From a virus, in the IMG/VR virus record IMGVR_UViG_3300030419_003648, positions 35,883-99,882 of that record: 64,000 bases of DNA. One strand, written 5' to 3'. The notes under the pieces were generated by a model, which saw only the letters and a program-made list of their open reading frames with translations, had not been told where the DNA came from and searched no databases. Shown piece by piece: positions 2,943 through 54,300 of the stretch (position 1 is the stretch's first letter; each line of letters opens with the position of its first letter). The translations under genes were made by a program, and so were the position numbers.

Positions 2943-2943
2943 A

Positions 2944-3402
2944 ATGTCACCACTAGAACTTATAAAAAATGGAATTTTAGAAAATGATTTTCAAAAAGTT
3001 ATTCAAGGCTATGAAGCCCTCACAGGAGAAGACCTCTCTTCAATCAGAGGAGAAGATCCAACAACCTCAAGAGAAGAAAGCACCAGCGACCAATCAGAGG
3101 AAGTGCGGAGGCCACAAGTGCCGGTGCGGTCGTCGGAGTTAGACTTCACAGTCCAAAGAGATGAACTCCCGAATGGAAAGTTTGGAAGAAAAGAATCAAT
3201 ACAAGTAGGCGCAAATCAATTTGTGGATGATGGATCTGAGTCGCAGGGAAAAGAGTTTGATACTCCAAAAGTTGAACCAACCCCAAGACGAAGCCCAGTA
3301 AAAATGATAGAAGTTGTTTGCAACGCATGTGGAGCTAAGGAAGAGATAAATCCAAAATATAAAACTGGTAGCTATCATCGTTGCGGGAAGTGTGTAGGTT
3401 AA
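2944..3402 (+). CDS. hypothetical protein with C-terminal Zn ribbon
   Basis: CNACG...CGKC at the C-terminus; AGAGGA Shine-Dalgarno. Confidence 0.7.
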   Translation: MSPLELIKNGILENDFQKVIQGYEALTGEDLSSIRGEDPTTSREESTSDQSEEVRRPQVPVRSSELDFTVQRDELPNGKFGRKESIQVGANQFVDDGSESQGKEFDTPKVEPTPRRSPVKMIEVVCNACGAKEEINPKYKTGSYHRCGKCVG

Positions 3403-37568: not shown

Positions 37569-37897
37569 TGAAAGTAACTTATACAAGCGGCAAGATTAGC
37601 GTTGAGATTGAAGCAGACACTCAAATTGAACTGTTTCAGCAATTAGCTAACTTCCAAGAGATTTTTGCCGAAACTAAGTGTGGTAAATGCGGCAGCGAGA
37701 ACATTAGATTTCAAGTAAGAAATGTAGATGACAATCTTTATTACGAAGCTAGATGTGTAGACTGCGGAGCAAAGCTAGCATTTGGCGTGATGAAGAAGGG
37801 TGGAAGGTTGTTCCCAAAACGTAAAGACAAAGAAGGTAATTGGCTTCCTGATGGTGGATGGGTTAAATGGAACCCAGATACTCAAAAAGAAGAGTAA
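37568..37897 (+). CDS. Zn-ribbon protein
   Basis: CGKCG...CVDCG; TAATG coupling to the Rad52-like gene. Confidence 0.7.
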   Translation: MKVTYTSGKISVEIEADTQIELFQQLANFQEIFAETKCGKCGSENIRFQVRNVDDNLYYEARCVDCGAKLAFGVMKKGGRLFPKRKDKEGNWLPDGGWVKWNPDTQKEE

Positions 37898-37899
37898 AG

Positions 37900-37931
37900 A
37901 AAAAACCCCGTCATTGCTGGCGGGGTTTTTT
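37900..37931. terminator. bidirectional rho-independent terminator
   Basis: AAAAAA-CCCCGTCA-TTGC-TGGCGGGG-TTTTTT between convergent gene blocks. Confidence 0.9.
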
Positions 37932-37953
37932 AATGCTTACACAATGGTAGCCT

Positions 37954-38637
37954 TTAGAGATATTCTAACTCTACATAAAGACCGTATTGGGTCTTACTAC
38001 CTATACTGTCTGGAGAAGCCGTAATAGCAACGTACCAATCATGCTGAGTGTATTGCCCAGTATTAGATCCTCCATTTCCAGCGTACGCACCGCTTGGGCC
38101 GGGAGACTGAGCCAGAGGAACAATGACACCGCTACCACCCACAGTGTTAGTACCAGTAGGAAGTCTAGTGCTTGGGTTAGGAGTTGAGCTATCTGTTGCA
38201 CTACCATACCATGTAGTATCTCCTGATCCCTCAACTAAATAGGAATTTGAAGTATGAAGTAGTTCCGCAACCCTTGTTACAACCCCACTAGCAGGGTGAT
38301 CTTTATTTACTCGGTCAAAAATCCTCAGCTTAGCGTTCTGTGTTCTAACTGCACTGTCATTAGTGAATCGTATGTTTAAAGTAGCTTTTTCGTTTGGTAT
38401 ATACAATAAACCAGTAGCTGGTACTACACCATTTGCAAAAGACTTAGTGTCCGTTGAATATTTGCAGTTATTAGCAGTACCACCATTCGTAGTACCATTA
38501 CCGTCTGTTATAAAAGTTGTAGACTGCCAAGTATTCAACTGAACTGATTGGCCAAAAGAACCTCCAAAAAACCCCAAGCCAGAGCCTGAAAGGTTATTAA
38601 TGGATGTACCTCCAGCGTAAAAGTTAATTGATGCCAT
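37954..38637 (-). CDS. putative virion structural protein
   Basis: 227 aa, G/S/T/N-rich and beta-strand-like; last gene of the structural strand; AAGGGG Shine-Dalgarno. Confidence 0.6.
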   Translation of the reverse strand: MASINFYAGGTSINNLSGSGLGFFGGSFGQSVQLNTWQSTTFITDGNGTTNGGTANNCKYSTDTKSFANGVVPATGLLYIPNEKATLNIRFTNDSAVRTQNAKLRIFDRVNKDHPASGVVTRVAELLHTSNSYLVEGSGDTTWYGSATDSSTPNPSTRLPTGTNTVGGSGVIVPLAQSPGPSGAYAGNGGSNTGQYTQHDWYVAITASPDSIGSKTQYGLYVELEYL

Positions 38638-38663
38638 ATCAAAATCCCCTTAGAGAGAGTTGT

Positions 38664-38683
38664 TTTCTATAATATTATACACC
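38664..38683 (-). promoter_or_regulatory. candidate late promoter (GTGTATAATATTATAG)
   Basis: Perfect palindrome TATAATATTATA (38668-38679) in the only sizeable intergenic gap of the structural strand; no -35 consensus seen. Confidence 0.4.
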
Positions 38684-38684
38684 A

Positions 38685-39365
38685 TTACTCAAAAAAGCCT
38701 TTTGTTTTCTTTGGCTTGCCATAAGGGAAAAGCTTATTGAGCTTGCTTTGTCGTTCCTTACATCCACAATCTTTATTCATAGCACCGAATACACTGTCTA
38801 CAACCTTTTTTATACCAGTTGCTTTTGTTATCTTTGCTACAGTATCACCTAAACCTCTAGACTCTTTAGGTATTTCTGGGTCACCCATAAAGAATCCTTT
38901 AGTAGCTTCTTCTTCTTCTTTTTTATCTTTTTCTTTACCGTCTTGAGTTGCCATTATTCCGTCCATTTCTTCCTGCCACTTTTGTTCACGTTGTTTAATT
39001 TGTGTATCAGTAACAGGGTAATCATTAACAAAGTTGTACCTCATGATCGGGTCTTGATTAGGTCCTACGCCCTCTTCCCACATATTAAAATAGTCTAACC
39101 TAGTCTGGCATAACGTGTGCAAATGTTTAGTCTTTATTGCTTTGTGTCTTGGGCATTTTATAAATTCTTTTTTAAAGTCACATTGACATGGTGTCACATG
39201 TTTAGGCGGCTCTATTACTTCGTCCCATTTTTTTAATAAAGTGTCAGAATCCCTAATATCTGGCCTTCTACTTGGGATTTGGTTTAATCTATCAACTTCT
39301 CTTTGAAGATTACTCATCTGTTGATGGTACTCTTCTTCTTCTGTTTTAAAGAATCCTTTTGCCAT
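38685..39365 (-). CDS. tail-associated Cys-motif protein
   Basis: C-terminal SRGLGDTV.K...GIK...DCGC..R..KLN motif; internal CQC..C.H...C; AGGAG Shine-Dalgarno. Confidence 0.65.
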   Translation of the reverse strand: MAKGFFKTEEEEYHQQMSNLQREVDRLNQIPSRRPDIRDSDTLLKKWDEVIEPPKHVTPCQCDFKKEFIKCPRHKAIKTKHLHTLCQTRLDYFNMWEEGVGPNQDPIMRYNFVNDYPVTDTQIKQREQKWQEEMDGIMATQDGKEKDKKEEEEATKGFFMGDPEIPKESRGLGDTVAKITKATGIKKVVDSVFGAMNKDCGCKERQSKLNKLFPYGKPKKTKGFFE

Positions 39366-39376
39366 TTTCGCTCCTA

Positions 39377-42300
39377 CTACTCTGTTATGTTGACCTTAAT
39401 CGGGGCATTTCCATCCATGTCTAAACCAAAGTCATATTTGATACTTGTAGCCATTGGTCCTATATAGGTGTCGTAACACTTGTCTCCACATTCATACCCT
39501 GTCATTGGACCTCTTGCATTTACACATTTTTGAGGGAAAAAGAACCAATATTCCATGTTAACAGGAGTGTTGCTATTTCCTTGTGCGCAATCATCTAATG
39601 GGGGTGGATACCCTACTATAACACTAAATTGGCCTCCATGCCTACTCCACGATGGATATAATTCTGCGTATGGATCGGTATAACTTGTTCTACTGAAATT
39701 ATATGCTTCCCATTGATTGACTGGCTTACCTTCATCATTTTTCTTCGCTAAACATTCTTCTTCCGTTTCTTTAGTTGCGTCACTACATGCGCCACAGTTC
39801 TCTTCGGCTTTATCATGTATTTTTCCTTCTCGGTCGTAGCAAAGCTCTATTTTTCCAGCGTCTTCTGCTTTAGGATCTCCAGCTGCTATAACGCCTTTAT
39901 ACATCCTTCTAGCTTCTCCAATCGCTCCAGTTCCACCTAGAGTAATTGATTCAGCAGATCTAAGCGATACAAATCTTTCAGGTGTAGTTTCTATATTTGT
40001 TTTTTCCGAAGAATCTCTTATTCCAAAAGGGTTTCCTATCCAAATTGGAGTCCCACCTAATACACGACACTCTTGTGAATGTGTTGTGGTTATTGTGCCA
40101 CCTTGATCATCTACCATACAAATAAACTGATTTTGAACTGTTCCATTTGATTCTAAACATTCATCAGCACTGTCTGCATCTACTTCTTCTGGTATGAAAG
40201 CTCCAGAACAAGCTCCATGTTTTGTTGTGGTTCTAACTCCACTTGGAGATACGCAAGTTCCAACCTTAGATCTATCCTTCGTGTAACATTTTCCGTAAAC
40301 TTCAACAAATTGACAATTACTTGATTGTTCACATAAAGATTTTTGGAGGTTTGGAGGTACAAGTTTGCCATCACCAAATTTAGGAACTCCATTGTCATGC
40401 ATGTCTTTTATTGATATTGAAGCGCCAGCTGTTACCGTTGCGCTTTTTAGATTTACGCAAGTAAATTCATCACTACTAGGATCTTTGTATAAATAACAAT
40501 CTGGCGAGTTTCCACAAGCAGTTTCGTTGCAACCTGAAAACGGGTAGACATCTGAGTCGTGGTCGTAAACATTTGATGAACGAAAATTACCAGAAGTATA
40601 TTCTTCTGCAATCTTTAAGTATGGAGTCTCATGAACATCATAGTTCAACTCTCCATGTATTGCGAACTCATTCGGCTTCAAAGGAAGTGGATACCATTGC
40701 CATCCATGTGATTCGCAATCGTCTTTTGTATTGAATAAAGCATTTTGACATTGCCTCAATCTAACAATATGCATGTCATCTATATCATGGTATGGACATC
40801 TTGTAACTTCCCTAGCAACTTCTGCACCGCTGGCGTCTTTTTCTATTATCACTACTTCGTGGCATAGCAAACACTTTCCTTGTGGGTAATCTTCAGTTGG
40901 CGGCTGACAAGCATTCTTCGTATAAAAAGCGTTTACTCTACAACCAATAGGACACCCTTCTTCGTATTGACCTGTTGGAAGTATTTTTGGCTCATTGTTA
41001 AATGGGTCTTCAAATTCACCTCGTGAATTTTTGTCTAGGTTTCTTCTTCCTATTACCCATTCGCCTCCAAATACATCTTCGCATAAGTATTCGTCTAACT
41101 CAGAATCTTCAGCTACTGTTCTCCATATGCCGTTTGGTACAAACTGATAATCAGCCGAATTTGATTGCGCGGCTTGGCTACAAGCATCTTCATATATGAT
41201 CGGGTCATTGTTTGCGTCATAAACTTCACTCCCAGACACTGGATCAATACATTTTCCTACCATGCAATCGTTAGGATTTTGTATGTTCTGTGTAACATTT
41301 GGATTGTTATAATCATAGCACTCACCAAGCGTAACGCCTTTACATGTAGCTCTATACATGATTGAGCCGCTGACTAAAACCTTTTCTCCATCATTTAAAT
41401 CATGATCTAGCACCGTCTCTATTACAGTGTGTGAGAAAGGATAAATCCACTTTGAATTGTTATTTTCACATGTTTTTTTAGTTGTATAAGCTCCATTTGT
41501 GCAATACCCTTTTGGATCAAATGGATTGATGTCATAGACATTTCTATAAGATTTTATACCGGCGGGTTCTCTTGGGTCGTGTACTGGAATAGGAGTGCTT
41601 GTAGTACCTTCAGTACCTCCTCCCATTTTTACTTCTTTGACTTCACTATACTTATTTAAGTATTCAGCTGTTGGTAAAGGTCCAACTCTTCCCGGAATCA
41701 TTACATGACCCAATTCATCTAAAGCAAGGCTTTCTACTTTTAATGGGTGTTGTGGTATTGAACTATCTGGGAGACCACTACGCAAACTACCGCGTGTGTC
41801 TTGAACGGTATCTACAGGCCAAGGGTGTAAACCGTATGGGCTAGGAAGGGTTTTAGGTTTCTTACCATCTATTCCTGAAAGCTCCCCTGACGAATTGAGA
41901 CTTCTGGAGTAGTCTCCTAAATGTCTATCGTACTTATGAGCAGCGCTTATTAGTTTTGTGACATCTGCAACCTTTATTTCCATGAATGGCTCGTCGCCAC
42001 GCCCTCTAGTCATATCTGAGTAATTTAGGTCACCGTTTGGAATTGCTTCTGTTAGTTTTGTTCCTCCAAATGGCAAGAATGGATTTCTTGATTGTCTATT
42101 TCTCACTCTGCCTTGCAATGGATGATATACTGCTCCCCCTTCTGCCTCAGTCTTATCTGCCATTCCTATACCAACAGTAGCACCTTTTTCATAACCGCAA
42201 TAACGACCTCCAAAGGTTGGTCCATAAGCGCCTACTACCAGAGTGCCTGAACCATCTTCCTGAACGTCTTTTACATAATAAACATTAAATGTTTCTGCTG

Positions 42301-45300
42301 GTTTATCTGGATACAATTTCATGCCAACTTGCTGACAGTCATTTGCTTGTTTAACGTCGCCGCCAGTAGCACACACTTCCATTCCGTACAAACCAGATGC
42401 ACCACTTCTAGCTACTGCTGTTGGCTGTGTAGGTCCAGTGTAAGTGCAACAACCAGTACATGGCCATTCTGGACCTCCACCCAAAATACAAACATTACCA
42501 GCCTTATAATATTTAAATCTTCCCTCTCCTATACCTAACTCATCTCTTTCATCGTTTACCTTTTTTCCACTCCAGCATCCATCACTATTAGCTCCGGGAT
42601 ATATTGGTGGATTACCTTGTAGGTCCACTGGCACATCAATGACTGCATCTTCTGAATTCCAGTAGGAGCAATTCATTATCTCCATCCACAGTTCCATGCC
42701 ACTACGTCTATAGCTATCAAAGTTGTCAAATCCACCCTGAATCATCGCGTCTCCGTCATGTGCAGAGGCACTTCCAATAGTAGATCCACAGCCTAACATC
42801 AACCTTGTAAAGAAGGCATCATGCTCGTCTGATGGCCCCGTAACATCATGAAAACCATTACTAATGCCGTATATAGCTTGATCACAACCATTGCATTTTG
42901 TGTTAATAGCTGGTCTACTTGTTCGGGCTTCTTCAATTCTTCCGGGGCCTTCGCCATACCAACTATTTGCTTTGCAGGTATCTTGTAAGCAAGCATCCCA
43001 CTCATCTGGATCTATTGATTTTGTTGGATTTGTTTCCCAGTCAGGATTCAGTTTCTTTAGACAGTCTCCTTTTACAGCTAAAGTAGCTCTAGCAACACTA
43101 CCAGCAACATTAACACATGCCCATCCACTTGCACAATGTTTAGGATAATCAATCATATGGCATGACTTCATTCCCACATCATTCATTTTGTGCCAACTAG
43201 AAGCCCATGTTACACCATTAAATTCCAATGGTATTGACATACTTCCAAATCCGGGAACTGCTTCACTTGAGCCAACCACTTTACAACTATTAGCTAAATC
43301 ATAACAATCAAGTTGAAAATCAGTTGTTATTTGTCTTGGTCCACAACCTTGTGGATAATAAAATTTTCCACCAGCATCTTTACAAGCTTCTTCGGTTGTA
43401 GCGTTTGCATTACCACAATCTGTTGGATCAGAAGCACCTGAACAATCACATTTTCCACCAACTCCTAAACAATTATCTTTTGGGCTTGTGCTTATCCCAT
43501 CTCTTAAACAGCTTCCTTCAAAACCTTCAGTACATAACTCTCCGGGATGACAATCATGAGATACTCTTTCGGGAAAACAAATACAAGGCTCGTAAGACCA
43601 ATCGTATCTTCCGTCTTCTTCACCCGCTTTTGCCTTTTTACACTCACCTAAAGTCCACGAATTTCCCGTAGGATCACCAGTATCCATATCAGTTTCGCAG
43701 TTATCATAATCATCACCAGTCTCGCCAGATACTATCACGCCTCCGCTTGCAGAACATGTAGCTTCATCAGTAACAAAATTACCTATTCTAGCTTTTGTAT
43801 CTTCATCTCTGCATATTTCTGCACAGTCAGGCACTCCATTATGTGTTACACAACATTTCCCGTCGTCTTCTGGCGCGTCAAAACCGTGCCATTGACAACA
43901 ATTACTTTGTGTCTCGTCTAAACAATTTGCTTCATCAAAAAACTTACCACAATTAACACTCGCACAGTTATCATCACTATCAGAATAAAATTTGCAAGTT
44001 GCTGTTGTTAGTCCAAAAGAATGCGTTTCCCCTAAGTTGTCAGAACCACAGGTAATTTTCTCGTTAATCATCCAGTCTTCTATTTCACGACATGTCCAAT
44101 AAGGATAATTCCGATCTAACAATCGTGAATCTTGATCGTTTGTCATACATTCGCAATTAGGACAACATGGATCATTTTTCAATGGTGCCTGCTGGCTATC
44201 TCTATAAACGCACCCACAATCCCTACAGTTTGTAGTTCCCATTACATTAGGACGTTTTCTGATAAACATGTCACAGTCTTCTGGGCGTTTAAGAGGTTCA
44301 AATTCACCTATTATTTTGCCATCACTGTCAACAACTTTATCACAGTCAGCTTTTCTGTACCTGACTAACCTTTCTCTGGTTTCCCCGTGAATACACTTTC
44401 CATAAGTTTCCCAGTTTCCTTTCCATGTTTCTCCGGCGGCTTCACATTCAACTTTATTGCTTTTGTCTGGGTTAGTACAGAATCCAGTTTCGCAATGTGG
44501 AATATCACTAACATTACAACCATGAAAGGTGTCTGAACAACAATAGCCTTGATGTCCTATAAATTCTGGTTTGCATATGTCTCGGCCACATCCAACACGA
44601 TTCCAACTACTATCTTGTGCAGTTAAAGTAGCAGTTAAAGTGTGAGGCAAGAAGTGGTCACAACAAACAGGGCATGTCCCTTTTTGTTCAACCTGCATAT
44701 ACCAGTCTTGCGCTCTATGTTCATACTTGTAGCCAATACCATCCCATCCCGGATGGTACAAATCGTCTAATTCATCTTTTGTAAAATGAGAAACATATCC
44801 AGCATTTACTCCTTCGTCGTCTAGCATCACTGCTAAAGCGCCAGTGTAGGGGCAGGTTTTGTAAGAAATAAAACTGTACGCATCTACATCAGTGTCAATG
44901 TCTACTTCTGACTCAGGAGGAGGAGGGCCAAATCTATTCTGCCCCCAACATCCTGAAAACGCGCCATCTCCCTCGCCGTTATTTTGAACGCAGCTATGAT
45001 AGTTGCCTTCGGACCATGCAAGCGCTCTATCTTTTCCATTATGTTTTTGAGTTCCAGTGCAACTATTTTTGTCTATTTGTGGTAATAAAGTTTTTTCTTC
45101 AATCCAAGTTCCATTTTTTTCGTTTCGGCAATTTGACTCGGTTTTGAATTCTTGCTGTATTTCAAAGTCAACTAGCTTTCCGGGAGTCCATACTGGCTCT
45201 CCACTTTCCGCTAAACAGTCTGCTTTATGTTTGTGATCTCCTTCACTACATGTTCCACAATCCCCATAGGGTTCAACCTGAATTTGATTATTAATTATGC

Positions 45301-48300
45301 AGGATTTTTTCGTTGGGTGTACGCATCTAGTATCATCTCGTTCACAAGAAGCAGTACCTTCATCAGGATACAACCTATAATGCTTGGCTAGTTCAACACA
45401 TTCCTCTTTAGTCATAGACATCTCATGAGTGGTTTCCTCACCAGTTTTTTTCATGACTTTGCAAAAGCCATAACGCTCACAAGACTGTCTTCCACCGCCT
45501 TCTTTTTCAGGTGTTTCAGGATCGTCATAAATACCTATGACATTTGTTATCTTGAAAGGTCCTTCAAGATCTTCATCTTCCTCATTTCTTTTTGTTTTGC
45601 AAAATTCTTGTTCTTTTAATTGCTCAGGAGTTAAACGAACTTCGCCTAATTTTTTGTCACGAACTTTCTTCTCTAAGAAGTTTCTCTTTGATACACAAAT
45701 ATCTGGGAAGCTTGTTATTTTTGGAAGTTCCCCATTTACTTTTTTGGGATCTGCTTCGGCAAATGGAACTATAGTACCATCTGTATATTTGAGTGTGAGT
45801 TCAGTCTTTTGTTCTTGTAGTATCGTTTGCTCAAGGTCACCCATTATGCAAACGCCGTCATCGCAACCAAGACGTTCTAGTTCTGGTAAATTAGCAAAAG
45901 CGTTTATTGTTCCATCAATAGGCTTTCCGTCACAGGCAAACAGGTCAAACGTATCTCTTGTGATATTTTTAGCTACGAACCAAGGTGCTGGATCTGGGTC
46001 TCTACCATTTATTACAGAGCCATAACAAGCCAAAAATTCATCGGGACACTCATACGTTCCGTCGTCTTTGTATTTACCCGGACATTTTGCCGCCGGAAAC
46101 ATTATGTCGTCGCATCCATCTCCAACACAAGGATTGTAAATTTTGTCTTGGTATTGCGTCTCTTGCCAATCTCTATTTGACAGTACATTAGCTGCAAAGT
46201 TACCCATGATGCCATAGGTCATAACCTTTGTACCTTCGACCAACCTGTGATTTCTTGAGGTTATGGTTATAGGAGATGTATTACTAGCATCTTGAATTGA
46301 TACTTCTCTTCCAGTTCCAATGCAATGATTGTTAACAAAGCTAATTAAACCTTCGCCTTTTGGGAATAAGCCTGTTTTTCCCCAATAGTCTAAAGAATCA
46401 TTATGAATTGCATGTACTCTATCTCCATCATTTTGGCCTGCTTGATTAGCCGTATGACCACTTATTGTTATACCTCTTTCTCCAATAATCCTTGAATCTG
46501 TCGCTGCGGCTATGACATTTGAAGGAACAGGAAACACTGGCTCGCAATGAGAGTCAGCCGTCAAAACTGCTTGAGAATAATGTCTTTCTTCTATCCATTC
46601 TCCCTGAGCGCATTTTTCACTGAGTGTACATGTACATTCGCCTTCATCGTTAGCAGGTCTGGTTAGTGCAGACGCTGTAAATACTTCTCCTCCAGTGCCT
46701 TGATCTTCTCCTATTGATCGACACAAGTCTTCATCGGTTGGGGGGATGCCATTTCCTTCATCATCAAGTATTTCCTCTCCAAACCAAATACAAGTTTTTC
46801 CTTCTTCAAGACCTTTAGACTTGCAATTTTCGGCTTCATCGTCTTCTGACTCAGGCTGTGATGGTAAGTCATCCTCTTCTACTTTGTATTCAGGAACGTC
46901 ACCTTCGCCTTCAACTTCGACTACACACCGACATGTTCCAGTGTTAACAGTTTCGTCAGGAGCTACGGGAGGAACTCTACATTTAGAACCTTCTTTTACT
47001 AGGTCTAATGTCCATGTAACCGGACGGCTACAACCTCTTTCGTCCTCGCAGCATATTTGTACTTCTCCACCACCTTGTTCACAATCGCTTTTAGTAAATT
47101 CATCGCTTAGAGTCTTGTAAGAAAACGTAGAACTGTCTTCATTTTCTGTTTTGCATCTGCTGGGTATTGGAGATTTTCCGGCCTCTCCGCTACAGTCGCA
47201 CGCGTCTAGATTAGCTTCTGATTTTTGCCAAGCATCCCAACCTAAACTTTGCCCACAAGCATGGCTAGTGAGACTACCTTCCAATCCATCTATTGCGTCT
47301 CTAACTCCCTGACTTACTGATTCACATACAGCTGGAGTAGCTTTGTCATAGAGGAAGTCATGGGTGAACCAATAATCCAACCCCATATTTATAAACCACT
47401 TCCCTCCACCACCTGCTTTTTGCGCAGCACATTTTTGCCAATATCTATGGTCGTTTACTGCTTGTTCTATTCCTTTAGCATAATTTTGTGTTTTTTCAGT
47501 GGCTTTAAATGGTTGAGGTCTATAGTTAAAAGCTTTTAGTTTTAGATGTCCTAGTGGATTATGATTTCGTGGTATTGGGTTTCCACTTTCGTAATAGGTA
47601 TATCTTTCGCAAATAGCGCCTTCGCTCTTTTCAAGAAATTGAGGGTTAGGCCAAGCACACCAATTTTTTCCATCTTCTGGGTCTTCAGGATTTCCGGGGA
47701 AAAAGCCAGCAGGATTACCAAAGTAATGGGACATATTACTGTTCCATCTTTGTTGTACTTCACTCCAGCCACTATTAAGAGTGTTTTTGTCGCTAAGTGT
47801 GAGATTAAAATCAGAACAGTTCAAGAACTGATCTATAGGGAAGTAAAGCATTAATTCTTCCCCGCATCCCATTTTATTTTTGCCATAGACACTAGTGTTT
47901 CTTTCGCCTTGATCGTCAAAACAATCAGCCCAAAAACCACACTCTCGTAATGTTACAGTCCAATAAGACTCAGTATCGGCATGTATCGTTATTCTTTCTT
48001 CTTGGTTTTGTATAGCAACGCAACCAGCCTCAGCATGTATAGGAGCATCAGTAGCAGAAATGCCATCTGGAGTAAGAACTAATTCCCTGTAAGGTGTAAA
48101 GCATACGTTATTTTTTCTAGTATTAGCATAACCACCAGAAACTTGAGGTGTATGACTTGGATGACTTTCAGATGTCATCATGCCACCGCAACAACTTTCA
48201 GGATCTCTTTCCCAGTCTACCCATTGGTGAGCTAGAAAATGATTCTTTGGTTCTTCTTCTCTACACTCTTTTTCGTTATCAATACCCTCTATAATTTCTC

Positions 48301-49585
48301 CGGTGTTTTTAGCTTTGCAAACACCTCTCAGTTGACATCCTGCTTCACTATCAAGCCAAACAGAAGCAACGCCACTTTCGTCAAATTTAGTTTGGCAATG
48401 ATTTATTATGTCATTTAGAGTTACCCATATATTGCCACCTGATTCACATGATTTTTTGTCAGTACCGACACCTGACGCAGTTGGCTCGAATTGCGAACCT
48501 TTTTTTACACAATGCGCAAAAGCGTATGTATATTGCATAGAGCCAGTGCAATAGTTGTAGCCAGAAACTTCGATGTCTTTTCCGGTTTGGACGTTTCTAC
48601 ATTTAGGCTTTTTAATAGCTGGAATTTGCCCGTCATGAAAACACTTACTTACATGTGTTATTTCACGTTTATGTGTTGGATCATCAATGACGGCAGTGCT
48701 ATGACCACAACGCCCACTGCTTGCAGTTATAACATGACCATCTTCGTTATAACAAACATAATGAGCATCTTCTATTAAAGAACTTCCAGTGTATAGGTCG
48801 TTTCTGTGTAGACTATCTTCTTCTTCTGTTACGGTTATAGTTCCATCGTCATTTATCACATGGTCTACATCGGTCTCAGAATTAGAAATAAATTGTTCGC
48901 CCCATTCATCTGGGGTTAGAGAAAGTTCTTCAAATGATCTTGGCCATGTGCCTTCTCCTACAAGAGCTTTATCATAATTTGGTCTACCTGAATACTCACC
49001 TTCCCATTCTGCTAATCCATTCCCGTCTTCGCTAGCTTTAACTTCTCCCAAATACTTGTTCTGACCACGCCAGCATTGGGATTCTTTTCCATTTGGTAAA
49101 GTTGTAACCTTGCAGGGGTCACAGTTTCTTGGAGTTCTTAAACCGAATGGATTAGAAGCAGTAGATATATCAAATTCTTTTTGATTGCCAAACTGATCAA
49201 AATTATCAACATCACCAGTGACTTCAGTATCATCATCAGTGCAGCATTTTCTACCTCTATAAACACCATTAGTGTATTTTAGGTGCCATACATCCCCTCC
49301 CGAAGCTCCAGCCCTTGCTTCTACCCTCCCAGTCTCACCTTTCACCAATGTAATGACTATTTCTGGTGGTAATGAACATGTTGCACCAGTAATACTATTA
49401 CAGCTAAGATCTACACACCCGCACCCTTCTTTACAGAATCTTCCCGCACCTCGATGTTCGTGAGCTTCTGTATAGCTATAGTCATCAGAAACATCAGGAC
49501 CCCAAGCTATCTTGCCAGAAGCTCTGTTTCTTTTTTTGGGATTAGTCGGATCATATGATGTATCCCAAGGATCTCCTACGCCCAT
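39377..49585 (-). CDS. giant Cys-rich putative tail fibre/adhesin (3402 aa)
   Basis: Uninterrupted 10.2 kb ORF; repeated C..(T/N)K..CE..GG.W modules; a tail-type beta-barrel motif (ASNTSPITITSRNH.L..G..V...G..GN.AAN). Confidence 0.7.
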   Translation of the reverse strand: MGVGDPWDTSYDPTNPKKRNRASGKIAWGPDVSDDYSYTEAHEHRGAGRFCKEGCGCVDLSCNSITGATCSLPPEIVITLVKGETGRVEARAGASGGDVWHLKYTNGVYRGRKCCTDDDTEVTGDVDNFDQFGNQKEFDISTASNPFGLRTPRNCDPCKVTTLPNGKESQCWRGQNKYLGEVKASEDGNGLAEWEGEYSGRPNYDKALVGEGTWPRSFEELSLTPDEWGEQFISNSETDVDHVINDDGTITVTEEEDSLHRNDLYTGSSLIEDAHYVCYNEDGHVITASSGRCGHSTAVIDDPTHKREITHVSKCFHDGQIPAIKKPKCRNVQTGKDIEVSGYNYCTGSMQYTYAFAHCVKKGSQFEPTASGVGTDKKSCESGGNIWVTLNDIINHCQTKFDESGVASVWLDSEAGCQLRGVCKAKNTGEIIEGIDNEKECREEEPKNHFLAHQWVDWERDPESCCGGMMTSESHPSHTPQVSGGYANTRKNNVCFTPYRELVLTPDGISATDAPIHAEAGCVAIQNQEERITIHADTESYWTVTLRECGFWADCFDDQGERNTSVYGKNKMGCGEELMLYFPIDQFLNCSDFNLTLSDKNTLNSGWSEVQQRWNSNMSHYFGNPAGFFPGNPEDPEDGKNWCAWPNPQFLEKSEGAICERYTYYESGNPIPRNHNPLGHLKLKAFNYRPQPFKATEKTQNYAKGIEQAVNDHRYWQKCAAQKAGGGGKWFINMGLDYWFTHDFLYDKATPAVCESVSQGVRDAIDGLEGSLTSHACGQSLGWDAWQKSEANLDACDCSGEAGKSPIPSRCKTENEDSSTFSYKTLSDEFTKSDCEQGGGEVQICCEDERGCSRPVTWTLDLVKEGSKCRVPPVAPDETVNTGTCRCVVEVEGEGDVPEYKVEEDDLPSQPESEDDEAENCKSKGLEEGKTCIWFGEEILDDEGNGIPPTDEDLCRSIGEDQGTGGEVFTASALTRPANDEGECTCTLSEKCAQGEWIEERHYSQAVLTADSHCEPVFPVPSNVIAAATDSRIIGERGITISGHTANQAGQNDGDRVHAIHNDSLDYWGKTGLFPKGEGLISFVNNHCIGTGREVSIQDASNTSPITITSRNHRLVEGTKVMTYGIMGNFAANVLSNRDWQETQYQDKIYNPCVGDGCDDIMFPAAKCPGKYKDDGTYECPDEFLACYGSVINGRDPDPAPWFVAKNITRDTFDLFACDGKPIDGTINAFANLPELERLGCDDGVCIMGDLEQTILQEQKTELTLKYTDGTIVPFAEADPKKVNGELPKITSFPDICVSKRNFLEKKVRDKKLGEVRLTPEQLKEQEFCKTKRNEEDEDLEGPFKITNVIGIYDDPETPEKEGGGRQSCERYGFCKVMKKTGEETTHEMSMTKEECVELAKHYRLYPDEGTASCERDDTRCVHPTKKSCIINNQIQVEPYGDCGTCSEGDHKHKADCLAESGEPVWTPGKLVDFEIQQEFKTESNCRNEKNGTWIEEKTLLPQIDKNSCTGTQKHNGKDRALAWSEGNYHSCVQNNGEGDGAFSGCWGQNRFGPPPPESEVDIDTDVDAYSFISYKTCPYTGALAVMLDDEGVNAGYVSHFTKDELDDLYHPGWDGIGYKYEHRAQDWYMQVEQKGTCPVCCDHFLPHTLTATLTAQDSSWNRVGCGRDICKPEFIGHQGYCCSDTFHGCNVSDIPHCETGFCTNPDKSNKVECEAAGETWKGNWETYGKCIHGETRERLVRYRKADCDKVVDSDGKIIGEFEPLKRPEDCDMFIRKRPNVMGTTNCRDCGCVYRDSQQAPLKNDPCCPNCECMTNDQDSRLLDRNYPYWTCREIEDWMINEKITCGSDNLGETHSFGLTTATCKFYSDSDDNCASVNCGKFFDEANCLDETQSNCCQWHGFDAPEDDGKCCVTHNGVPDCAEICRDEDTKARIGNFVTDEATCSASGGVIVSGETGDDYDNCETDMDTGDPTGNSWTLGECKKAKAGEEDGRYDWSYEPCICFPERVSHDCHPGELCTEGFEGSCLRDGISTSPKDNCLGVGGKCDCSGASDPTDCGNANATTEEACKDAGGKFYYPQGCGPRQITTDFQLDCYDLANSCKVVGSSEAVPGFGSMSIPLEFNGVTWASSWHKMNDVGMKSCHMIDYPKHCASGWACVNVAGSVARATLAVKGDCLKKLNPDWETNPTKSIDPDEWDACLQDTCKANSWYGEGPGRIEEARTSRPAINTKCNGCDQAIYGISNGFHDVTGPSDEHDAFFTRLMLGCGSTIGSASAHDGDAMIQGGFDNFDSYRRSGMELWMEIMNCSYWNSEDAVIDVPVDLQGNPPIYPGANSDGCWSGKKVNDERDELGIGEGRFKYYKAGNVCILGGGPEWPCTGCCTYTGPTQPTAVARSGASGLYGMEVCATGGDVKQANDCQQVGMKLYPDKPAETFNVYYVKDVQEDGSGTLVVGAYGPTFGGRYCGYEKGATVGIGMADKTEAEGGAVYHPLQGRVRNRQSRNPFLPFGGTKLTEAIPNGDLNYSDMTRGRGDEPFMEIKVADVTKLISAAHKYDRHLGDYSRSLNSSGELSGIDGKKPKTLPSPYGLHPWPVDTVQDTRGSLRSGLPDSSIPQHPLKVESLALDELGHVMIPGRVGPLPTAEYLNKYSEVKEVKMGGGTEGTTSTPIPVHDPREPAGIKSYRNVYDINPFDPKGYCTNGAYTTKKTCENNNSKWIYPFSHTVIETVLDHDLNDGEKVLVSGSIMYRATCKGVTLGECYDYNNPNVTQNIQNPNDCMVGKCIDPVSGSEVYDANNDPIIYEDACSQAAQSNSADYQFVPNGIWRTVAEDSELDEYLCEDVFGGEWVIGRRNLDKNSRGEFEDPFNNEPKILPTGQYEEGCPIGCRVNAFYTKNACQPPTEDYPQGKCLLCHEVVIIEKDASGAEVAREVTRCPYHDIDDMHIVRLRQCQNALFNTKDDCESHGWQWYPLPLKPNEFAIHGELNYDVHETPYLKIAEEYTSGNFRSSNVYDHDSDVYPFSGCNETACGNSPDCYLYKDPSSDEFTCVNLKSATVTAGASISIKDMHDNGVPKFGDGKLVPPNLQKSLCEQSSNCQFVEVYGKCYTKDRSKVGTCVSPSGVRTTTKHGACSGAFIPEEVDADSADECLESNGTVQNQFICMVDDQGGTITTTHSQECRVLGGTPIWIGNPFGIRDSSEKTNIETTPERFVSLRSAESITLGGTGAIGEARRMYKGVIAAGDPKAEDAGKIELCYDREGKIHDKAEENCGACSDATKETEEECLAKKNDEGKPVNQWEAYNFSRTSYTDPYAELYPSWSRHGGQFSVIVGYPPPLDDCAQGNSNTPVNMEYWFFFPQKCVNARGPMTGYECGDKCYDTYIGPMATSIKYDFGLDMDGNAPIKVNITE

Positions 49586-49594
49586 TTTCCTACC

Positions 49595-51397
49595 TTATAA
49601 TGCTGCTGTTCTTGGATAATCATCATCTGGTCCGCAATCTTCTGCGGTAGCAAAACCCTGAGCAAAGAATTTTCTAGTGCAAGCTGTCATAGACCCTCTT
49701 TCACATCCAGCATTAGATATAATTTCCATACCGTAAAATTCACCTTGCAAAATGATATGAACAGGTATAGTTTCTTTCACAGTAATAGGCTTTCCTACTT
49801 TTTGTCCGCAACTTGCAGCGTCTGTTCTTGTATATTCATAAGTTATCTTCTTACCAGTATCATAACTAAAAAATGAATCTCCGACCATTAAACCTTGTCC
49901 AAGTGGGTTTTCTAGAAAGACTTTTTGGTAGAGCATACTTCTTGCTCTCTCTGTCATTGTTCCATCTGCTATTTTTTCTCCAATACCTTCTGGATTTCCA
50001 AAATAGCTATCTCCCCATCCATGACAAGGGTTTCCAGCTCTTCTATTGCCGGGATATCCTCCAGAACTTTTTCTAAACTTATCTGTGCAATTTGAAGGAG
50101 CATTTTTTGATCCTACTTGATGATGAACAGATCTTAATAAAATTCCATGATAAAACGGTTGACATCCATCTTTAAAGTCAGAGCAAGCTGTTATGTTTCC
50201 ATATGTTCTACATCTACCGCACCAAGCATGATCCTCTGGGTCAAATATTTCTATATCTGGATAATACATACTTTTAGGGAAGTATGATGTGTACTTACAT
50301 TCTTGTGTAGGGCATGGATTTCTATATAGTCTTCCGGGACTACTAAGACCTCCAACACCAAAATGAAAAGAGTTTGCACCATCCATACCCGTTTCAGGAA
50401 GTATACATCGAGTAGCTTTTGTGAGATATATTTGATTGAATTGACCACCAACCCAAACTTTTCTATCTCTATCCCATCTTAAGTCGATTGGGCCAGCTTT
50501 CCATTGGTCTTGCCTAGACATATAATATGGCAAAAAGTGCTTATGATCTTGTGGTGGACTTGCAGATGTTGCTTTGAATTTTTCGCTAGCATGAACACCC
50601 ACGGGCATACCATAAGTATGAGATTCGGGATCAGCATCTTTACGTTCAGCTTCAAACCTTGCATTTGGAACAGGCATACCATCAGTATCATAACCCCAAC
50701 CAGCCATGACCATCGGCCCTCTTAGACCCATAGGTCTAGCAACATTTTCAAATGTTCCCTCGGCACTTCCCTGTTGCTGAGCATCTCCAGCGTAACCACC
50801 CGCAGATATACTAGGGTTTCCAATATTTTTGTTTTTTACAACTGCTGAAATACTATGACCAGAAGCATATGGATTTAAACTAGCTGATGTTACATAAGCA
50901 AAATTACCAGCCAAAGACCCAAAAGCATTACCACCATTGTGCCACCAATTATCAATACTGTTTTTTACTACACCTTTTGGATCCAACGTTGAAAATGGAC
51001 GTTCAAAAGTTGGAAAGTATTCATGAGTTCCAACTTCAACATTCGCATCTTTGTCACTACCTTCTTCACTTATAATTTTAAAAGTAGTTGAAAATGGGAC
51101 AAACAAACCATCTAGACTAACACCAGCGCTTCTTTGCCAAGCTGGGTTACTAGGAAAGCTCTTCATAAGATTAGAAGTTGGAGTGGTAGCAATAGCAGCT
51201 TTACCAGTGCCGACTCTTTTTAATTGTCCCTGTTTACCCGCTACTGGATGATCAGTACCATAGCTAATGGGCATACCTTTAGCGTTTTTCATATTTGTTT
51301 CTTCGGTGTAATAAGCACCGACTAAAAACATATGACTAATATCGCTCTCGGCATTTTTGCCAGCGTCAACATTTCTTGGATTATTGGTATTTGCCAT
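49595..51397 (-). CDS. putative tail/baseplate protein
   Basis: 600 aa in the tail module; Cys-rich C-terminal half; TAATG-coupled to the 2025 aa gene. Confidence 0.55.
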   Translation of the reverse strand: MANTNNPRNVDAGKNAESDISHMFLVGAYYTEETNMKNAKGMPISYGTDHPVAGKQGQLKRVGTGKAAIATTPTSNLMKSFPSNPAWQRSAGVSLDGLFVPFSTTFKIISEEGSDKDANVEVGTHEYFPTFERPFSTLDPKGVVKNSIDNWWHNGGNAFGSLAGNFAYVTSASLNPYASGHSISAVVKNKNIGNPSISAGGYAGDAQQQGSAEGTFENVARPMGLRGPMVMAGWGYDTDGMPVPNARFEAERKDADPESHTYGMPVGVHASEKFKATSASPPQDHKHFLPYYMSRQDQWKAGPIDLRWDRDRKVWVGGQFNQIYLTKATRCILPETGMDGANSFHFGVGGLSSPGRLYRNPCPTQECKYTSYFPKSMYYPDIEIFDPEDHAWCGRCRTYGNITACSDFKDGCQPFYHGILLRSVHHQVGSKNAPSNCTDKFRKSSGGYPGNRRAGNPCHGWGDSYFGNPEGIGEKIADGTMTERARSMLYQKVFLENPLGQGLMVGDSFFSYDTGKKITYEYTRTDAASCGQKVGKPITVKETIPVHIILQGEFYGMEIISNAGCERGSMTACTRKFFAQGFATAEDCGPDDDYPRTAAL

Positions 51398-54300
51398 TAG
51401 CTTTGTCCAGTTTCTGATAATAAGTCTCTGCGAATTCTCACAATAAAGTCCTCAAAAGCCTTCTCGTTTTCAAACATTCTTGCTTCCATGTTTTTAATTC
51501 TTTCTTCATTTCTTTGAGAAAGATCTCCAAACTTTCTAGCAGTAGTAAGATTATACGTAGTGGTAACACCTCCAGATCCTATTTGCACATTAACATCTGT
51601 TACATATGGGCCTTGCACCTCCTTAAAGGCGGGATTACCATTAGCGTCTGTTCCGTCAGCAATCGTAAGCTTTATCTGAGTGCCAGCAAAATAAGTTGGT
51701 AAACCAGCTAAACTCACCGTTCCAGTTTCAAGTGTATTTTGTTGCTGTATTAAAGCTCTTTTAGCCTGAGCAAGTGCAAAACGATTCAATTCCCCTTCAC
51801 TACCAAACGTAGCAGGATGCAGAGAAGTATCTTGCTTATACTCCGTTTTGCCAAATCCAGTTCCTATAGCCCAAGGACCCCAAGTGTATCTTGTGCTTTG
51901 TTGAGGAACTCCAGCATAAAAAGGCTTATAAGCAGCATCTGCAATCTGGCTCTTAGATCCATCAGGAGCTATCATTGGATGGGTTAAAGTGTCATTACCA
52001 AACGCTGCCAAGTTTTGCCACGCGGCTATTTCTGGACTAGTACCACTAGATCTAGCCCAACCTCTTTGTAAACAATTTGAATTTTTATGATGTATTAATG
52101 GTACACAAATTTCACCCTCACCCATGTCATCAGTAGCCATTGCATAATCTACATGACCATATCTAACAGCATTCGGGATAGTAATCAAAGCATAAGGTTT
52201 ATAAAATGCAAACTCAGTTAATTCATCTGCTCGCAACTTCCTTTGGTTTTTAGGAATATACTTATGAAGAGTATCTCTAGTAAGTAACTTCCTACTTTCT
52301 TTAATAAACTCAGGAGCTTGCCTTGGCTGTCTTTGTTTAGGGCTTCTAATAGGATATGTTTTAGCATGTAAAAGTTCCCACATTGGTCTAGTTTTTAACC
52401 AATAAGTTTTAGGATCAACATCAGCTCTGACAAAAACTTTACCTGAATATCCAATTGCAATATTATTTCGATGTTGATTTTGTTCTAGTTCCTCACGGGT
52501 ATATCTCCTTTCGTCTGGGTTAGACATTCTCTCTGGATCAATATCGCCAAAATTTAAACTTACCTTGTCTCCTTGCAGTCTTCTTGTTTCTTTATGAGGA
52601 AAAGCTACAAAAGCTGCTAAGTTACCACCCTCCCAGAAGTTTATGTCTTGTGGGTAACTAGTATTTTTGTATGTACTCGCTTCCCAATCTGGGTCATAAC
52701 CTTCTCCCGGCCATCCAGCACCAACAATATCCCATTTTTGTTCTGATTGTAGTGGGTCTATCCAAATTCCTTTGAGTTTTTCGCATTCTGCTCTATCTGG
52801 AACCCAAGCATGATTCTCGTCACTACCAGCCGCCTTCTTGCAAATACCTACTCCAAATTTTCTAAACCACTCACTCAACAATCCATGAGCGCCCCAATCA
52901 AAACCACCAACTTCTGAGAATACACCATTCCGTTGTCCGCATTCAGTCTCGTCTGTCACAGGTACAAATGGTACTATATAATCACCATCATCATCTTTTT
53001 GATGAATAATGTTTCCCATGTCGTCTAAACAAGTACTTCTTGTTTCTTCACATTCTGCCTGTGTTTCAATCCAAGGATTTGCACACCCAACTACTGTAGG
53101 TGGATTAAAAGGCAGTGGCATTAAATACTTTCTGCCGTAGAAATTATTTGCTAAGTCTTGAACTTTCTTGAATACATCTTGCATTGTCACGCCAGACGCT
53201 TCGTATTCATTCCACTTTATTTTCTTTCTTCCGCAAACTAAACCTGCTTCTGTTTGGCCTTCTCTTTCGTCTGTACCTCTTGAAAGACCATCTTCAATTG
53301 GGTTCATTGGTTTGTCATTACCCATAGCTGCTAGGTTTTGCCACCCTGCTGCTTGCTCAGGAGTAATTCCGTTCATTGCAATGTTGGCTTCTGTAGGGCA
53401 GTAATTGCACCATTTTCCACCTTGAGCTTGGCAATAATAACACGGCAAGAAAGGTTGGAAAACTCTCAAATAGTTGAAGTAGTTGTCAAAACCTATAGAG
53501 GCATGTCTCAATTCTGTGACTGTCGCCATGTAGTAACCACTGGCGTTGTCTATGTTTATACTAGATGGACCTCCTTTAAAACCAACAAACTGAGTATCAC
53601 CTAAATCTACAGGAATAGTCGCAGTGTTTGGTATTTTAGGGAATCCTTTTAGGTCTCTTGAGCCTTTTGTTTTCTTTTGATCCCATTCCTCTCCCATTCC
53701 AACACAGTCTTGTCTATTAGTCCATTGTGGATCTGTACATGTACCTTCTAATGACACAACTGGATTGATGTATCCCGGACCGGGATTATTCTTATTTGGA
53801 TCTACTGCGCCGGGAGTATTTGGCTCTTCTCTTGTGCATAGCGGATCCCAAACCTTTGTTATCCATTCAAAATTACCATATAATCCCGGATTCTCGCTTC
53901 TCTCTCTTTTTACACCTTTAGTAACTGAACTACCATCATCATTTACTGTAGTTTCATCTACTAATACTTGTTCACATTCTGCTCTAGTATTAAAAGTCTG
54001 ATCTTGATCTTCTCTTGTGTACTGATGAGAGCCGGTAAGACCTAAAGCTTGAGCGTTGGTATCTTTATCTTTACACCAACCTCCGTTAGGTTGTCGGAAG
54101 TTTCTCCAAGTACAATCTTCAGCGTATGGGCCATTGTCATTTCCTTGAAAACTATTTCCTTGTGTTCCATTTACTCTAGCTGTTGACTGACTAGGGCTTG
54201 GATGTCCTGTGGTAGAATCTATATACATGACAGCGCCTACCCAAGAAGGAACTCTTTGCCCTGAACTACCACCATCTAAGTAACCAGTGTAATCTTTTTC

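What the first reader, a model, noticed from the sequence alone, without database searches (positions are those of the whole stretch)
39377..49585. 3402 aa cysteine-rich tail protein resembling a disulfide-rich extracellular protein
Seen: very high Cys density along the whole length, CC/CxC clusters, no signal peptide, and at least 15 degenerate repeats. Examples are CTNPDKSNKVECEAAGETW (~44423-44479), YCTNGAYTTKKTCENNNSKW (~41448-41506) and CQNALFNTKDDCESHGWQW (~40694-40750). Knowledge: phage virion proteins fold in a reducing cytoplasm and are usually Cys-poor. Inference: a novel fibre/adhesin architecture, stabilised by disulfides formed after lysis or by metal binding, possibly needing a phage thiol oxidase.
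Basis: partly seen in the sequence, partly recalled or inferred. Interest (0 to 1): 0.72.

Follow-up and report, generated by a model that had tools for sequence, protein, structure and literature searches.

The report
Giant cysteine-rich phage tail-tip protein
An uncultured marine phage encodes, just after its tail tape-measure gene, a 375-kDa protein with 179 strongly conserved cysteines; it defines a small, undescribed family of tail-end proteins and raises the question of how a virus built in the reducing cytoplasm cross-links so many cysteines.

Summary
The 3402-aa ORF (window 39377-49585, minus strand) is real. It has 179 Cys (5.26%), against 0-3% in every other ORF of the contig. 160 of the 179 Cys are invariant in homologues of only 40% identity, where 38% of all residues are invariant. 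It is the fifth gene after a 2563-aa tape measure protein in a sheath-less, siphovirus-like phage. I found 23 relatives (2195-4101 aa, 3.9-6.7% Cys), all in the same gene order. Two lineages carry an M23 peptidoglycan-peptidase-like insert. There is no Pfam, PHROG, NCBIfam or PDB match.

A 20-aa two-Cys motif (consensus CTNPNYTDKDDCEAAGGTWI) has about 10 statistically supported copies, not 15. CC/CxC/CxxC clusters are no more frequent than chance.

Neither Erv nor DsbA is encoded. A thioredoxin-fold gene with a DsbA-like WCPHC site is kept across the clade, including relatives that lack ribonucleotide reductase.

Best reading: a distal-tail adhesin or penetration protein made of small cysteine-locked modules, probably disulfide-bonded. 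Both AlphaFold runs failed, so the chemistry is inferred.

An analogue that is not a homologue exists: cyanophage P-SS2 gp084 (10.8% Cys) was detected in virions. This scan has noted other giant Cys-rich tail proteins on other DNA (e1-5884230, e1-5862980); those are different families.

The parts
39377..49585 (-). 3402-aa, 375-kDa, pI 4.7 cysteine-rich protein (P0001)
   Evidence: homologues
49241..49585 (-). Conserved N-terminal block (residues 1-115; MxIGDPWDTSYNP ... GRFCxEGCGC ... KCC), the likely attachment end
   Evidence: invariant columns; conservation profile; N-termini of 23 relatives
45880..45970 (-). Site (about residues 1206-1235, FDLFACDGKPIDG...) where relatives P0009, P0012 and the L022 giant carry a roughly 200-aa M23-peptidase-like insert; the window protein has none
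44486..44785 (-). Most conserved core block (residues 1601-1700), containing EQKGTCPVCCDHFLP
   Evidence: (pattern CP[VI]C[CN]DH)
48419..48472 (-). Two-Cys minidomain copy (residues 372-389)
   Evidence: HMM score 10.6
45101..45250 (-). Two adjacent minidomain copies (residues 1446-1467 and 1477-1495)
   Evidence: HMM scores 9.4 and 11.0
44423..44479 (-). Minidomain copy CTNPDKSNKVECEAAGETW (residues 1703-1721)
   Evidence: HMM score 18.4
43358..43417 (-). Minidomain copy (residues 2057-2076)
   Evidence: HMM score 14.9
41504..42196 (-). Conserved stretch with no Cys (residues 2464-2694)
41444..41503 (-). Minidomain copy CTNGAYTTKKTCENNNSKWI (residues 2695-2714)
   Evidence: HMM score 18.3
41051..41110 (-). 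Minidomain copy lacking the first Cys (residues 2826-2845)
   Evidence: HMM score 11.4
40691..40750 (-). Minidomain copy CQNALFNTKDDCESHGWQWY (residues 2946-2965)
   Evidence: HMM score 23.3
40037..40102 (-). Weak minidomain copy (residues 3162-3183)
   Evidence: HMM score 6.7
39380..39676 (-). C-terminal four-Cys module (residues 3304-3402, WSRHGGxF...CAQGNS..PVN...C.N.RGP...C...C...VNITE), shared with many otherwise unrelated-length proteins
62648..64000 (-). C-terminal end of the tape measure protein (2563 aa in the sister contig, 0 Cys); cut off by the contig end
60044..62641 (-). 865-aa protein with a Laminin_G_3 domain, the first gene after the tape measure
57474..60044 (-). 856-aa tail-module protein with no family match
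51397..57474 (-). 2025-aa tail-module protein (39 Cys) carrying the same minidomain at residues 853-872 (54859-54918) and about 1246-1264 (53683-53739)
49595..51397 (-). 600-aa protein (13 Cys), always directly upstream of the giant gene (596-621 aa in the 12 loci that include the upstream flank; 683 aa in L029)
38685..39365 (-). 226-aa protein (6 Cys), always directly downstream (162-218 aa, 3-5% Cys in relatives)
37954..38637 (-). 227-aa Gly/Ser/Thr-rich protein, the last gene of the block (236 aa in the other relatives)

Best explanation
The ORF encodes a structural protein of the distal tail (adhesion and penetration device) of an uncultured marine, siphovirus-like phage clade with genomes of about 125-160 kb, probably infecting Planctomycetota or Verrucomicrobiota. 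Shown: it is a conserved core gene of the block that follows the tape measure gene; its cysteines are the most conserved residues; and relatives have an M23-like cell-wall peptidase module inserted in it. Inferred: the conserved N-terminus and the core blocks dock it to the tail tip. The chain is poor in aliphatic residues and rich in Gly, Pro, Asp and Cys, so it probably folds as a long series of small modules. These include at least 10 copies of a 20-aa two-Cys knob that is gained and lost between relatives and is shared with the 2025-aa neighbour. Each module would be held by cysteine cross-links rather than a hydrophobic core. I think most cross-links are disulfides that form once the particle meets oxygenated seawater, possibly helped before lysis by the phage's WCPHC thioredoxin-fold protein. 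They would make a very large exposed appendage resistant to unfolding and proteases. The variable segments between conserved blocks would contact the host surface.
For: Position: the sister contig reads TerL, portal, MCP ... 2563-aa tape measure (phrog_28, E 3e-31), 865, 856, 2025, 600, then the giant, 227, 227. The order ~2000 / ~604 / giant / ~200 / 236 aa holds wherever the flanks are present in 15 further IMG/VR loci. No sheath was found in five genomes, one of them 100% complete. Cys: 5.26% against 0.6% for the head-to-tape-measure proteins and 1.6% for non-structural ones. Cys content rises along the tail genes: 0, 0.8, 0.7, 1.9, 2.2, 5.3, 2.6%. 160 of 179 Cys are invariant at 40% identity, and 53% are invariant across six sequences where overall invariance is 12%. 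For disulfide rather than metal: CxxC is not enriched, and His is not enriched (2.4% against 2.2%) and is poorly conserved (29%, then 5%). Aliphatic residues I+L+V+M make up 15.8% against 23.9%. The commonest Cys-Cys spacing is 11, which is the motif spacing. Cell-wall contact: Peptidase_M23 scores 38.9 bits (cut-off 28.7) in P0009, with the same insert in P0012 and L022. Analogue: P-SS2 gp084 has 2612 aa and 10.8% Cys and lies after the tape measure genes; 43 peptides from it were detected in purified virions (PMC2784084 Table 2). Disulfide-bonded tail parts are documented in Pam3 (PMC9942802), 7-7-1 and Milano (PMC12796354), and Jabs (PMC13419713).
Against: There is no direct evidence that the protein is in virions. 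It has no detectable homology to Dit, Tal, gpJ, pb3 or any fibre family. AlphaFold gave pLDDT 28.7 and 47.3, so no Cys pairing can be read. The Cys count is odd (179). Tests for paired gain or loss of Cys were uninformative or weak (60 against 49.6 +/- 5.9, with 47 of 1000 shuffles reaching the observed value). Highly conserved CxxC(C) motifs (CDPC, CPVCCDH, CTGCC, CNGC) could be metal sites. The window protein itself has no M23 insert. The conserved C-terminus is unlike a receptor-binding tip.
Confidence: 0.55

Rival explanations
1. The cysteines mainly coordinate metals (Zn or Fe-S clusters). The protein would then fold fully in the reducing cytoplasm and need no oxidation, as with the 4-Cys iron-sulfur site of lambda gpL.
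For: Invariant CxxC-type motifs are present: FCxEGCGC, CDPC, CPVCCDH, CTGCC, CNGC. Fe-S clusters in siphophage tail-tip proteins are established (PMC10721106). This would remove the cytoplasmic folding problem.
Against: CxxC occurs at chance frequency (9 against 8.65). His is neither enriched nor conserved. The dominant repeat has only two Cys 11 residues apart, which is too few for a metal site on its own. 179 Cys would imply about 45 metal sites.
Confidence: 0.2
2. The phage makes the disulfides itself before lysis. Its small signal-less thioredoxin-fold protein, with the DsbA-type WCPHC active site, would act as a cytoplasmic thiol oxidase or isomerase for the Cys-rich tail-tip proteins.
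For: The WCP[HF]C gene is present in all five clade genomes that cover that region. 43 of 50 family members have WCPHC. It is retained in G002 (100% complete), G003 and G004, which have no RNR of class I, II or III. The canonical WCGPC thioredoxin occurs only in the two genomes that have RNR. From my own knowledge, a CPHC dipeptide makes thioredoxin folds much more oxidising.
Against: No electron sink (Erv, DsbB-like) was found. Its conserved, overlapping neighbour is a sugar-nucleotide epimerase, not a tail gene. Co-occurrence with the giant gene is confounded by shared ancestry. The analogue phage P-SS2 has only RNR-adjacent thioredoxin-like genes with other motifs.
Confidence: 0.15
3. It is an ejected pilot or penetration protein rather than an external fibre. 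It would be carried in or on the tail, released into the host envelope, and folded oxidatively in the oxidising periplasm to form or guard the DNA conduit.
For: M23-like peptidase inserts in relatives place the protein at the peptidoglycan. Both ends and blocks along the whole length are conserved, unlike receptor-binding fibres. The periplasm would supply disulfide catalysts.
Against: A 2563-aa tape measure protein already fills the tube lumen. There are no hydrophobic or TM segments for membrane insertion. Indel-rich variable regions suggest surface exposure and host-range selection.
Confidence: 0.08
4. It is not a virion component, or the ORF is an annotation artefact.
For: No experimental data exist and there are no family matches.
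Against: 23 full-length or partial homologues share conserved order, ends and cysteines down to 26-30% identity. The gene lies inside a single-strand tail gene block.
Confidence: 0.02

Closest known systems
Cyanophage P-SS2 gp084 (ORF084, 2613 aa; Sullivan et al. 2009, PMC2784084)
   Same: It is a giant protein encoded after the tape measure genes of a marine siphovirus. It is extremely Cys-rich (282 Cys, 10.8%) and matches no family. 43 peptides from it were detected in purified virions.
   Different: There is no sequence similarity (best blastp E above 1) and none of the 20-aa minidomain. Its Cys density is twice as high, in tight 4-Cys-type modules. The paper does not mention cysteines.
Siphophage adhesion-device proteins downstream of the tape measure (Dit, Tal, lambda gpJ/gpL, T5 pb3; reviews PMC7291167, PMC10721106)
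   Same: The genomic position is the same. Some relatives carry an M23-type cell-wall hydrolase module, as some Tal proteins do (from my own knowledge of TP901-1/Tuc2009 Tal). Cys-coordinated cofactors occur in tip proteins (gpL Fe-S).
   Different: There is no detectable homology. It is 3-10 times larger and has 179 Cys. The window protein has no enzyme domain.
Disulfide-stabilised phage virions: Pam3 (PMC9942802), Milano and 7-7-1 (PMC12796354), Jabs (PMC13419713)
   Same: These show that tailed-phage particles can carry functional disulfides in baseplate, fibre and tail parts, and that reduction can destabilise them.
   Different: Those use a few Cys per protein (proteome 1.45%, capsid set 2.6%), mostly for inter-subunit links. 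Here a single chain has 5.3% Cys, apparently for intra-chain module locking, while head, tube and tape measure are Cys-depleted.
Earlier notes of this scan: e1-5884230 (P-SS2-like prophage, 2678 aa) and e1-5862980 (jumbo phage, 2902 aa, 247 Cys)
   Same: They describe giant hyper-Cys-rich proteins in tail or baseplate modules of marine phages.
   Different: They are on other genomes and appear to be other families; I did not compare sequences directly, except with P-SS2 gp084.

Membership tests
Siphophage distal-tail / adhesion-device proteins (functional class) | The gene lies in the block immediately downstream of the tape measure gene | tested here: met
   The tape measure is identified by phrog_28 (E 3e-31). 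The giant is the fifth gene after it, on the same strand. The order is conserved in 15 loci.
Siphophage distal-tail / adhesion-device proteins (functional class) | Sequence or fold homology to Dit, Tal, gpJ, pb3 or RBP families | tested here: not met
   Pfam, PHROGs, NCBIfam and PDB sequence searches found nothing. The fold could not be tested because the models had pLDDT 28.7 and 47.3.
Siphophage distal-tail / adhesion-device proteins (functional class) | Physical presence in the virion tail | not testable with these tools
   The phage is uncultured. Only the analogue P-SS2 gp084 has virion mass-spectrometry data.
Classic phage tail fibre | Conserved N-terminal anchor, variable C-terminal receptor-binding tip, repetitive shaft | tested here: not met
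   The N-terminus is conserved, but the C-terminal 100 aa are among the most conserved parts and conserved blocks run along the whole length. There is no long-period repeat.
Tail-associated lysin (Tal) / Peptidase M23 | M23 domain with an HxH motif | tested here: not met
   The window protein has no M23. Relatives P0009 (38.9 bits) and P0012 (25.9 bits, below the cut-off) have a partial M23 match that retains HLH.
Disulfide-rich extracellular-type modular proteins | High Cys density with Cys as the most conserved residue and a weak hydrophobic core | tested here: met
   Cys is 5.26% and 89% invariant; I+L+V+M is 15.8% against 23.9%.
Disulfide-rich extracellular-type modular proteins | Cys actually paired as cystines; secretion signal | tested here: inconclusive
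   Pairing cannot be tested with these tools; co-loss of neighbouring Cys is only weakly above shuffles. There is no signal peptide.
Zinc-ribbon / Fe-S cluster proteins | Enriched CxxC pairs and conserved His/Cys ligand sets | tested here: not met
   CxxC occurs 9 times against 8.65 expected. His is 29% invariant, among the lowest of all residues. A few invariant CxxC(C) motifs leave local sites possible.
P-SS2 gp084 family | Sequence homology | tested here: not met
   The best blastp E is 1.2, and there are no minidomain HMM hits.
Viral oxidative-folding systems (Erv-type oxidase, DsbA) | An Erv/ALR or DsbA gene in the genome | tested here: not met
   PF04777 and PF01323 are absent from G000 and G001, and PF04777 from G002-G006. 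Only thioredoxin-fold genes with WCGPC and WCPHC are present.

The most novel reading that the evidence does not exclude
This phage clade runs its own oxidative-folding step in the bacterial cytoplasm. A dedicated, RNR-independent thioredoxin-fold protein with a DsbA-like WCPHC site would install or shuffle dozens of disulfides in the giant tail-tip protein and its Cys-rich neighbours before lysis. A bolder variant: the cysteine-locked knobs engage the cysteine-rich proteinaceous wall of planctomycete hosts (PMC8567305) by thiol-disulfide exchange.
Probability: 0.13. Interest if true: 0.85.

Novelty: new variant of a known kind. Interest (0 to 1): 0.55.

Why it matters
Tailed phages assemble in a reducing cytoplasm, and recent cryo-EM work has only begun to show that some use disulfides. 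This is a conserved 375-kDa tail protein with about 180 selected cysteines, in a clade whose heads and tape measure avoid cysteine. That makes the question sharp: where and how are the cross-links made, and what do they buy an ocean phage (stability of a huge exposed appendage, or redox-triggered infection)? It also defines an unannotated protein family and a small two-Cys module that could be used to annotate marine viromes. It points to a cultured analogue (P-SS2 gp084) in which the chemistry can be tested directly, and to a candidate phage redox enzyme.

Tried and rejected
AlphaFold2 on residues 1601-2402 (4-sequence alignment) gave pLDDT 28.7. On the C-terminal 253 aa (18 sequences) it gave pLDDT 47.3. 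Both models are unusable, so I ran no fold search.

The ESM Atlas gave no usable hit for residues 1-700 or 2693-3402.

tblastn of residues 404-3402 and of the 600-aa neighbour against 50,697 phage records found nothing.

A PDB sequence search with the family profile, and with the 2025-aa and 856-aa neighbours, found nothing.

I replaced it with fragment blastp and an iterated motif HMM.

The parity test on Cys in insertion segments gave an even fraction of 0.30 against 0.34 for random segments, which is uninformative. The co-loss test on neighbouring Cys columns gave only weak support.

The two small downstream proteins do not share the C-terminal module.

I rejected 'CC/CxC clusters' as a feature because they occur at chance level. 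I rejected an RNR role for the WCPHC gene as the sole explanation because relatives without RNR keep it. I rejected crAss- or N4-like packaged polymerase cargo because a tape measure is present and the TerL relatives are siphovirus-type.
Full report
**Observation.** The ORF listing and translate confirm a single ATG-initiated ORF at 39377-49585 on the minus strand, 3402 aa long. It has 179 Cys (5.26%). All other ORFs of at least 80 aa on the 99,882-bp IMG/VR contig that holds the window have 0-4.3% Cys. The protein is 375 kDa with pI 4.7, has no hydrophobic segment (maximum 19-residue Kyte-Doolittle value 1.06) and has a hydrophilic N-terminus.

Three points need qualifying:
- CC, CxC and CxxC counts (9, 8, 9) equal the shuffle expectations (9.3, 8.8, 8.65).
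- Residues 2464-2694 have no Cys.
- The repeat is a 20-aa motif with consensus CTNPNYTDKDDCEAAGGTWI. It has 9-10 HMM-supported copies, against 0.2 expected in shuffles of the whole proteome. About 15 appear only with a loose pattern. The commonest Cys-Cys spacing, 11, is the motif spacing.

**The gene is real and its cysteines are under selection.** A word-indexed search of 5.8 billion proteins found three full-length relatives: one at 90% identity and two at 40%. In that alignment 160 of 179 Cys are invariant, against 38% of all residues. Trp (73%), Gly and Pro follow; His (29%) is near the bottom.

An exhaustive HMMER search with the C-terminal 1200 aa found 37 proteins, including giants of 3004-3827 aa. 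A scan of IMG/VR found 16 loci. Altogether there are 23 giants or giant fragments, 2195-4101 aa when complete, with 3.9-6.7% Cys. They share the same N-terminus (MxIGD[PNF][WF]D[TS]S...) and usually the same C-terminus (...VNI[HT]E). Across six full-length sequences, 53% of Cys are invariant where overall invariance is 12%.

Conserved blocks are spread along the whole chain: residues 1-100, 451-750, 1051-1250, 1601-1700, 2401-2550, 2701-2900 and 3301-3402. Indel-rich variable regions lie between them. The last roughly 100 aa form a four-Cys module. It also ends many shorter proteins, some of which are probably fragments.

**Context.** The window ends inside a gene. The 90%-identical sister contig (73 kb) supplies the rest. 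Its order is TerL, portal, minor head protein, major head protein, fibre-like proteins, then a 2563-aa ORF whose N-terminal 1006 aa match tape-measure PHROGs (phrog_28, E 3e-31). After that come proteins of 865 aa (Laminin_G_3), 856 aa, 2025 aa and 600 aa, then the giant, then two of 227 aa. The window's 62648-64000 ORF is the C-terminal end of that tape measure.

No sheath domain is detectable in five clade genomes, including one rated 100% complete at 161 kb. The nearest cultured TerL relatives, at 25% identity, are siphoviruses. The order ~2000 / ~604 / giant / ~200 (3-5% Cys) / 236 aa holds wherever the flanks are present in 15 further loci.

Cys content rises along the tail genes: tape measure 0, then 0.8, 0.7, 1.9, 2.2, 5.3 and 2.6%. 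Head proteins have 0-0.5%. So the protein belongs to the distal-tail module. This rests on synteny, not on homology: Pfam, PHROGs, NCBIfam and PDB sequences all give nothing for it or its neighbours.

**Functional hints from relatives.** P0009 has a Peptidase_M23 match above the curated cut-off (38.9 bits). P0012 has a weaker one (25.9 bits), and the L022 giant shares the same roughly 200-aa insert. In all three it sits where the window protein reads FDLFACDGKPIDG. Only the C-terminal half of M23 (with HLH) is matched, and the other half seems to follow it, so activity is uncertain. A cell-wall peptidase module inserted into the protein argues that it reaches the host wall during infection. 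Five other giants have no Pfam domain at all. The two-Cys minidomain also occurs in the 2025-aa neighbour, at residues 853-872 (HMM score 16) and about 1246-1264.

**Disulfide or metal?** I could not test this directly, because both AlphaFold runs were unusable (pLDDT 28.7 and 47.3). Indirect evidence favours disulfides:
- CxxC is not enriched.
- His is neither enriched nor conserved.
- The dominant module has only two Cys.
- Aliphatic content is low (15.8% against 23.9%), as in small cross-linked domains.

Invariant CxxC(C) motifs (CDPC, CPVCCDH, CTGCC) leave room for a few metal sites. Lambda gpL's Fe-S cluster is a precedent (PMC10721106). Tests for paired loss of Cys were weak or uninformative.

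**Thiol enzymes.** No Erv or DsbA family gene is present. The contig has two tandem thioredoxin-fold genes 9-10 kb before the window. One has WCGPC and one has WCPHC, the DsbA dipeptide.

The WCP[HF]C gene is present in all five clade genomes examined, and 43 of 50 family members have WCPHC. RNR large and small subunits, and the WCGPC gene, occur only in G000 and G006. G002 (100% complete), G003 and G004 have no class I, II or III RNR yet keep the WCPHC gene. So that gene is not simply an RNR reductant.

Its conserved overlapping neighbour is a sugar epimerase, not a tail gene. It remains a candidate only.

**Host.** The phage's DUF1501 gene is closest (44-48% identity) to marine Planctomycetota and Verrucomicrobiota. 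This fits note e1-6028165 and is a phylum-level hint only. Planctomycete walls contain cysteine-rich proteins (PMC8567305), which I use only for the speculative reading.

**What is known.** Disulfide-bonded phage tails and capsids are now documented: Pam3 (PMC9942802), 7-7-1 with its citation of Milano (PMC12796354), and Jabs with about 1700 disulfides (PMC13419713). There, 1.5-2.6% Cys is called unusual.

Following note e1-5884230, I checked cyanophage P-SS2. Its gp084 has 2612 aa with 282 Cys (10.8%) and lies after the tape measure genes. The paper's Table 2 lists it as an 'unknown structural protein' with 43 peptides, without comment on cysteine (PMC2784084). It is not homologous to the present family (E above 1, no minidomain). 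P-SS2's thioredoxin-like genes are RNR-adjacent and have other motifs.

So a giant hyper-Cys-rich protein in the tail module of a marine siphovirus exists experimentally but has not been described. This is a second, independent family of that kind.

**Verdict.** I rate it a new variant of a known kind, with moderate-to-high interest.

Noticed in passing
window 62648-64000 (-), continued in G001 36982-44673 (L007/L008): The tape measure protein is 2563 aa and has not a single cysteine. Head proteins also have 0-0.5% Cys, while Cys content climbs gene by gene toward the giant protein.
   Followed up: partly
G000:C1:26095-26674 (L004:6095-6674), about 9.2-9.8 kb before the window start: There are two tandem thioredoxin-fold genes. 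The WCGPC one occurs only in genomes with RNR. The WCPHC one is kept in RNR-less relatives and always overlaps a sugar-nucleotide epimerase gene.
   Followed up: yes
P0009 residues about 1578-1810; P0012 about 1390-1626: The M23-like insert seems circularly permuted: the HLH-containing C-terminal half comes first and a PVY(V)A...G..V..H half follows. The usual HxxxD motif is not obvious.
   Followed up: no
window 38685-39365 (-): This 226-aa protein begins and ends with KGFF and has a C-terminal GLGDTVAKITKATGIKK...DCGCKERQSKLNKLF motif (phrog_32048, unknown function). It is always directly after the giant gene and has 3-5% Cys in relatives.
   Followed up: no
window 37954-38637 (-): This Gly/Ser/Thr-rich protein closes the tail block. 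It is exactly 236 aa in all 14 IMG/VR loci that reach it, despite deep divergence, and 227 aa here and in the sister contig.
   Followed up: no
L003:12685-13941 (G000), before the window: The phage DUF1501 gene is closest (44-48% identity) to marine Planctomycetota and Verrucomicrobiota MAGs. This hints at a host from the PVC group (Planctomycetota-Verrucomicrobiota-Chlamydiota).
   Followed up: partly
L115:14658-22496 (Cyanophage P-SS2 gp084): It has 282 Cys in 2612 aa (10.8%). The protein was detected in virions by mass spectrometry in 2009, but its cysteine content appears never to have been discussed.
   Followed up: partly
window 13558-35885 (+): A long run of glycosyltransferase and nucleotide-sugar genes lies upstream on the other strand. 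The Ser/Thr/Asn-rich tail-tip proteins could be glycosylation targets, but this is pure speculation.
   Followed up: no
window 36648-37568 (+): This 306-aa protein has an N-terminal HeH/LEM domain. It is conserved next to the tail block in all relatives.
   Followed up: no
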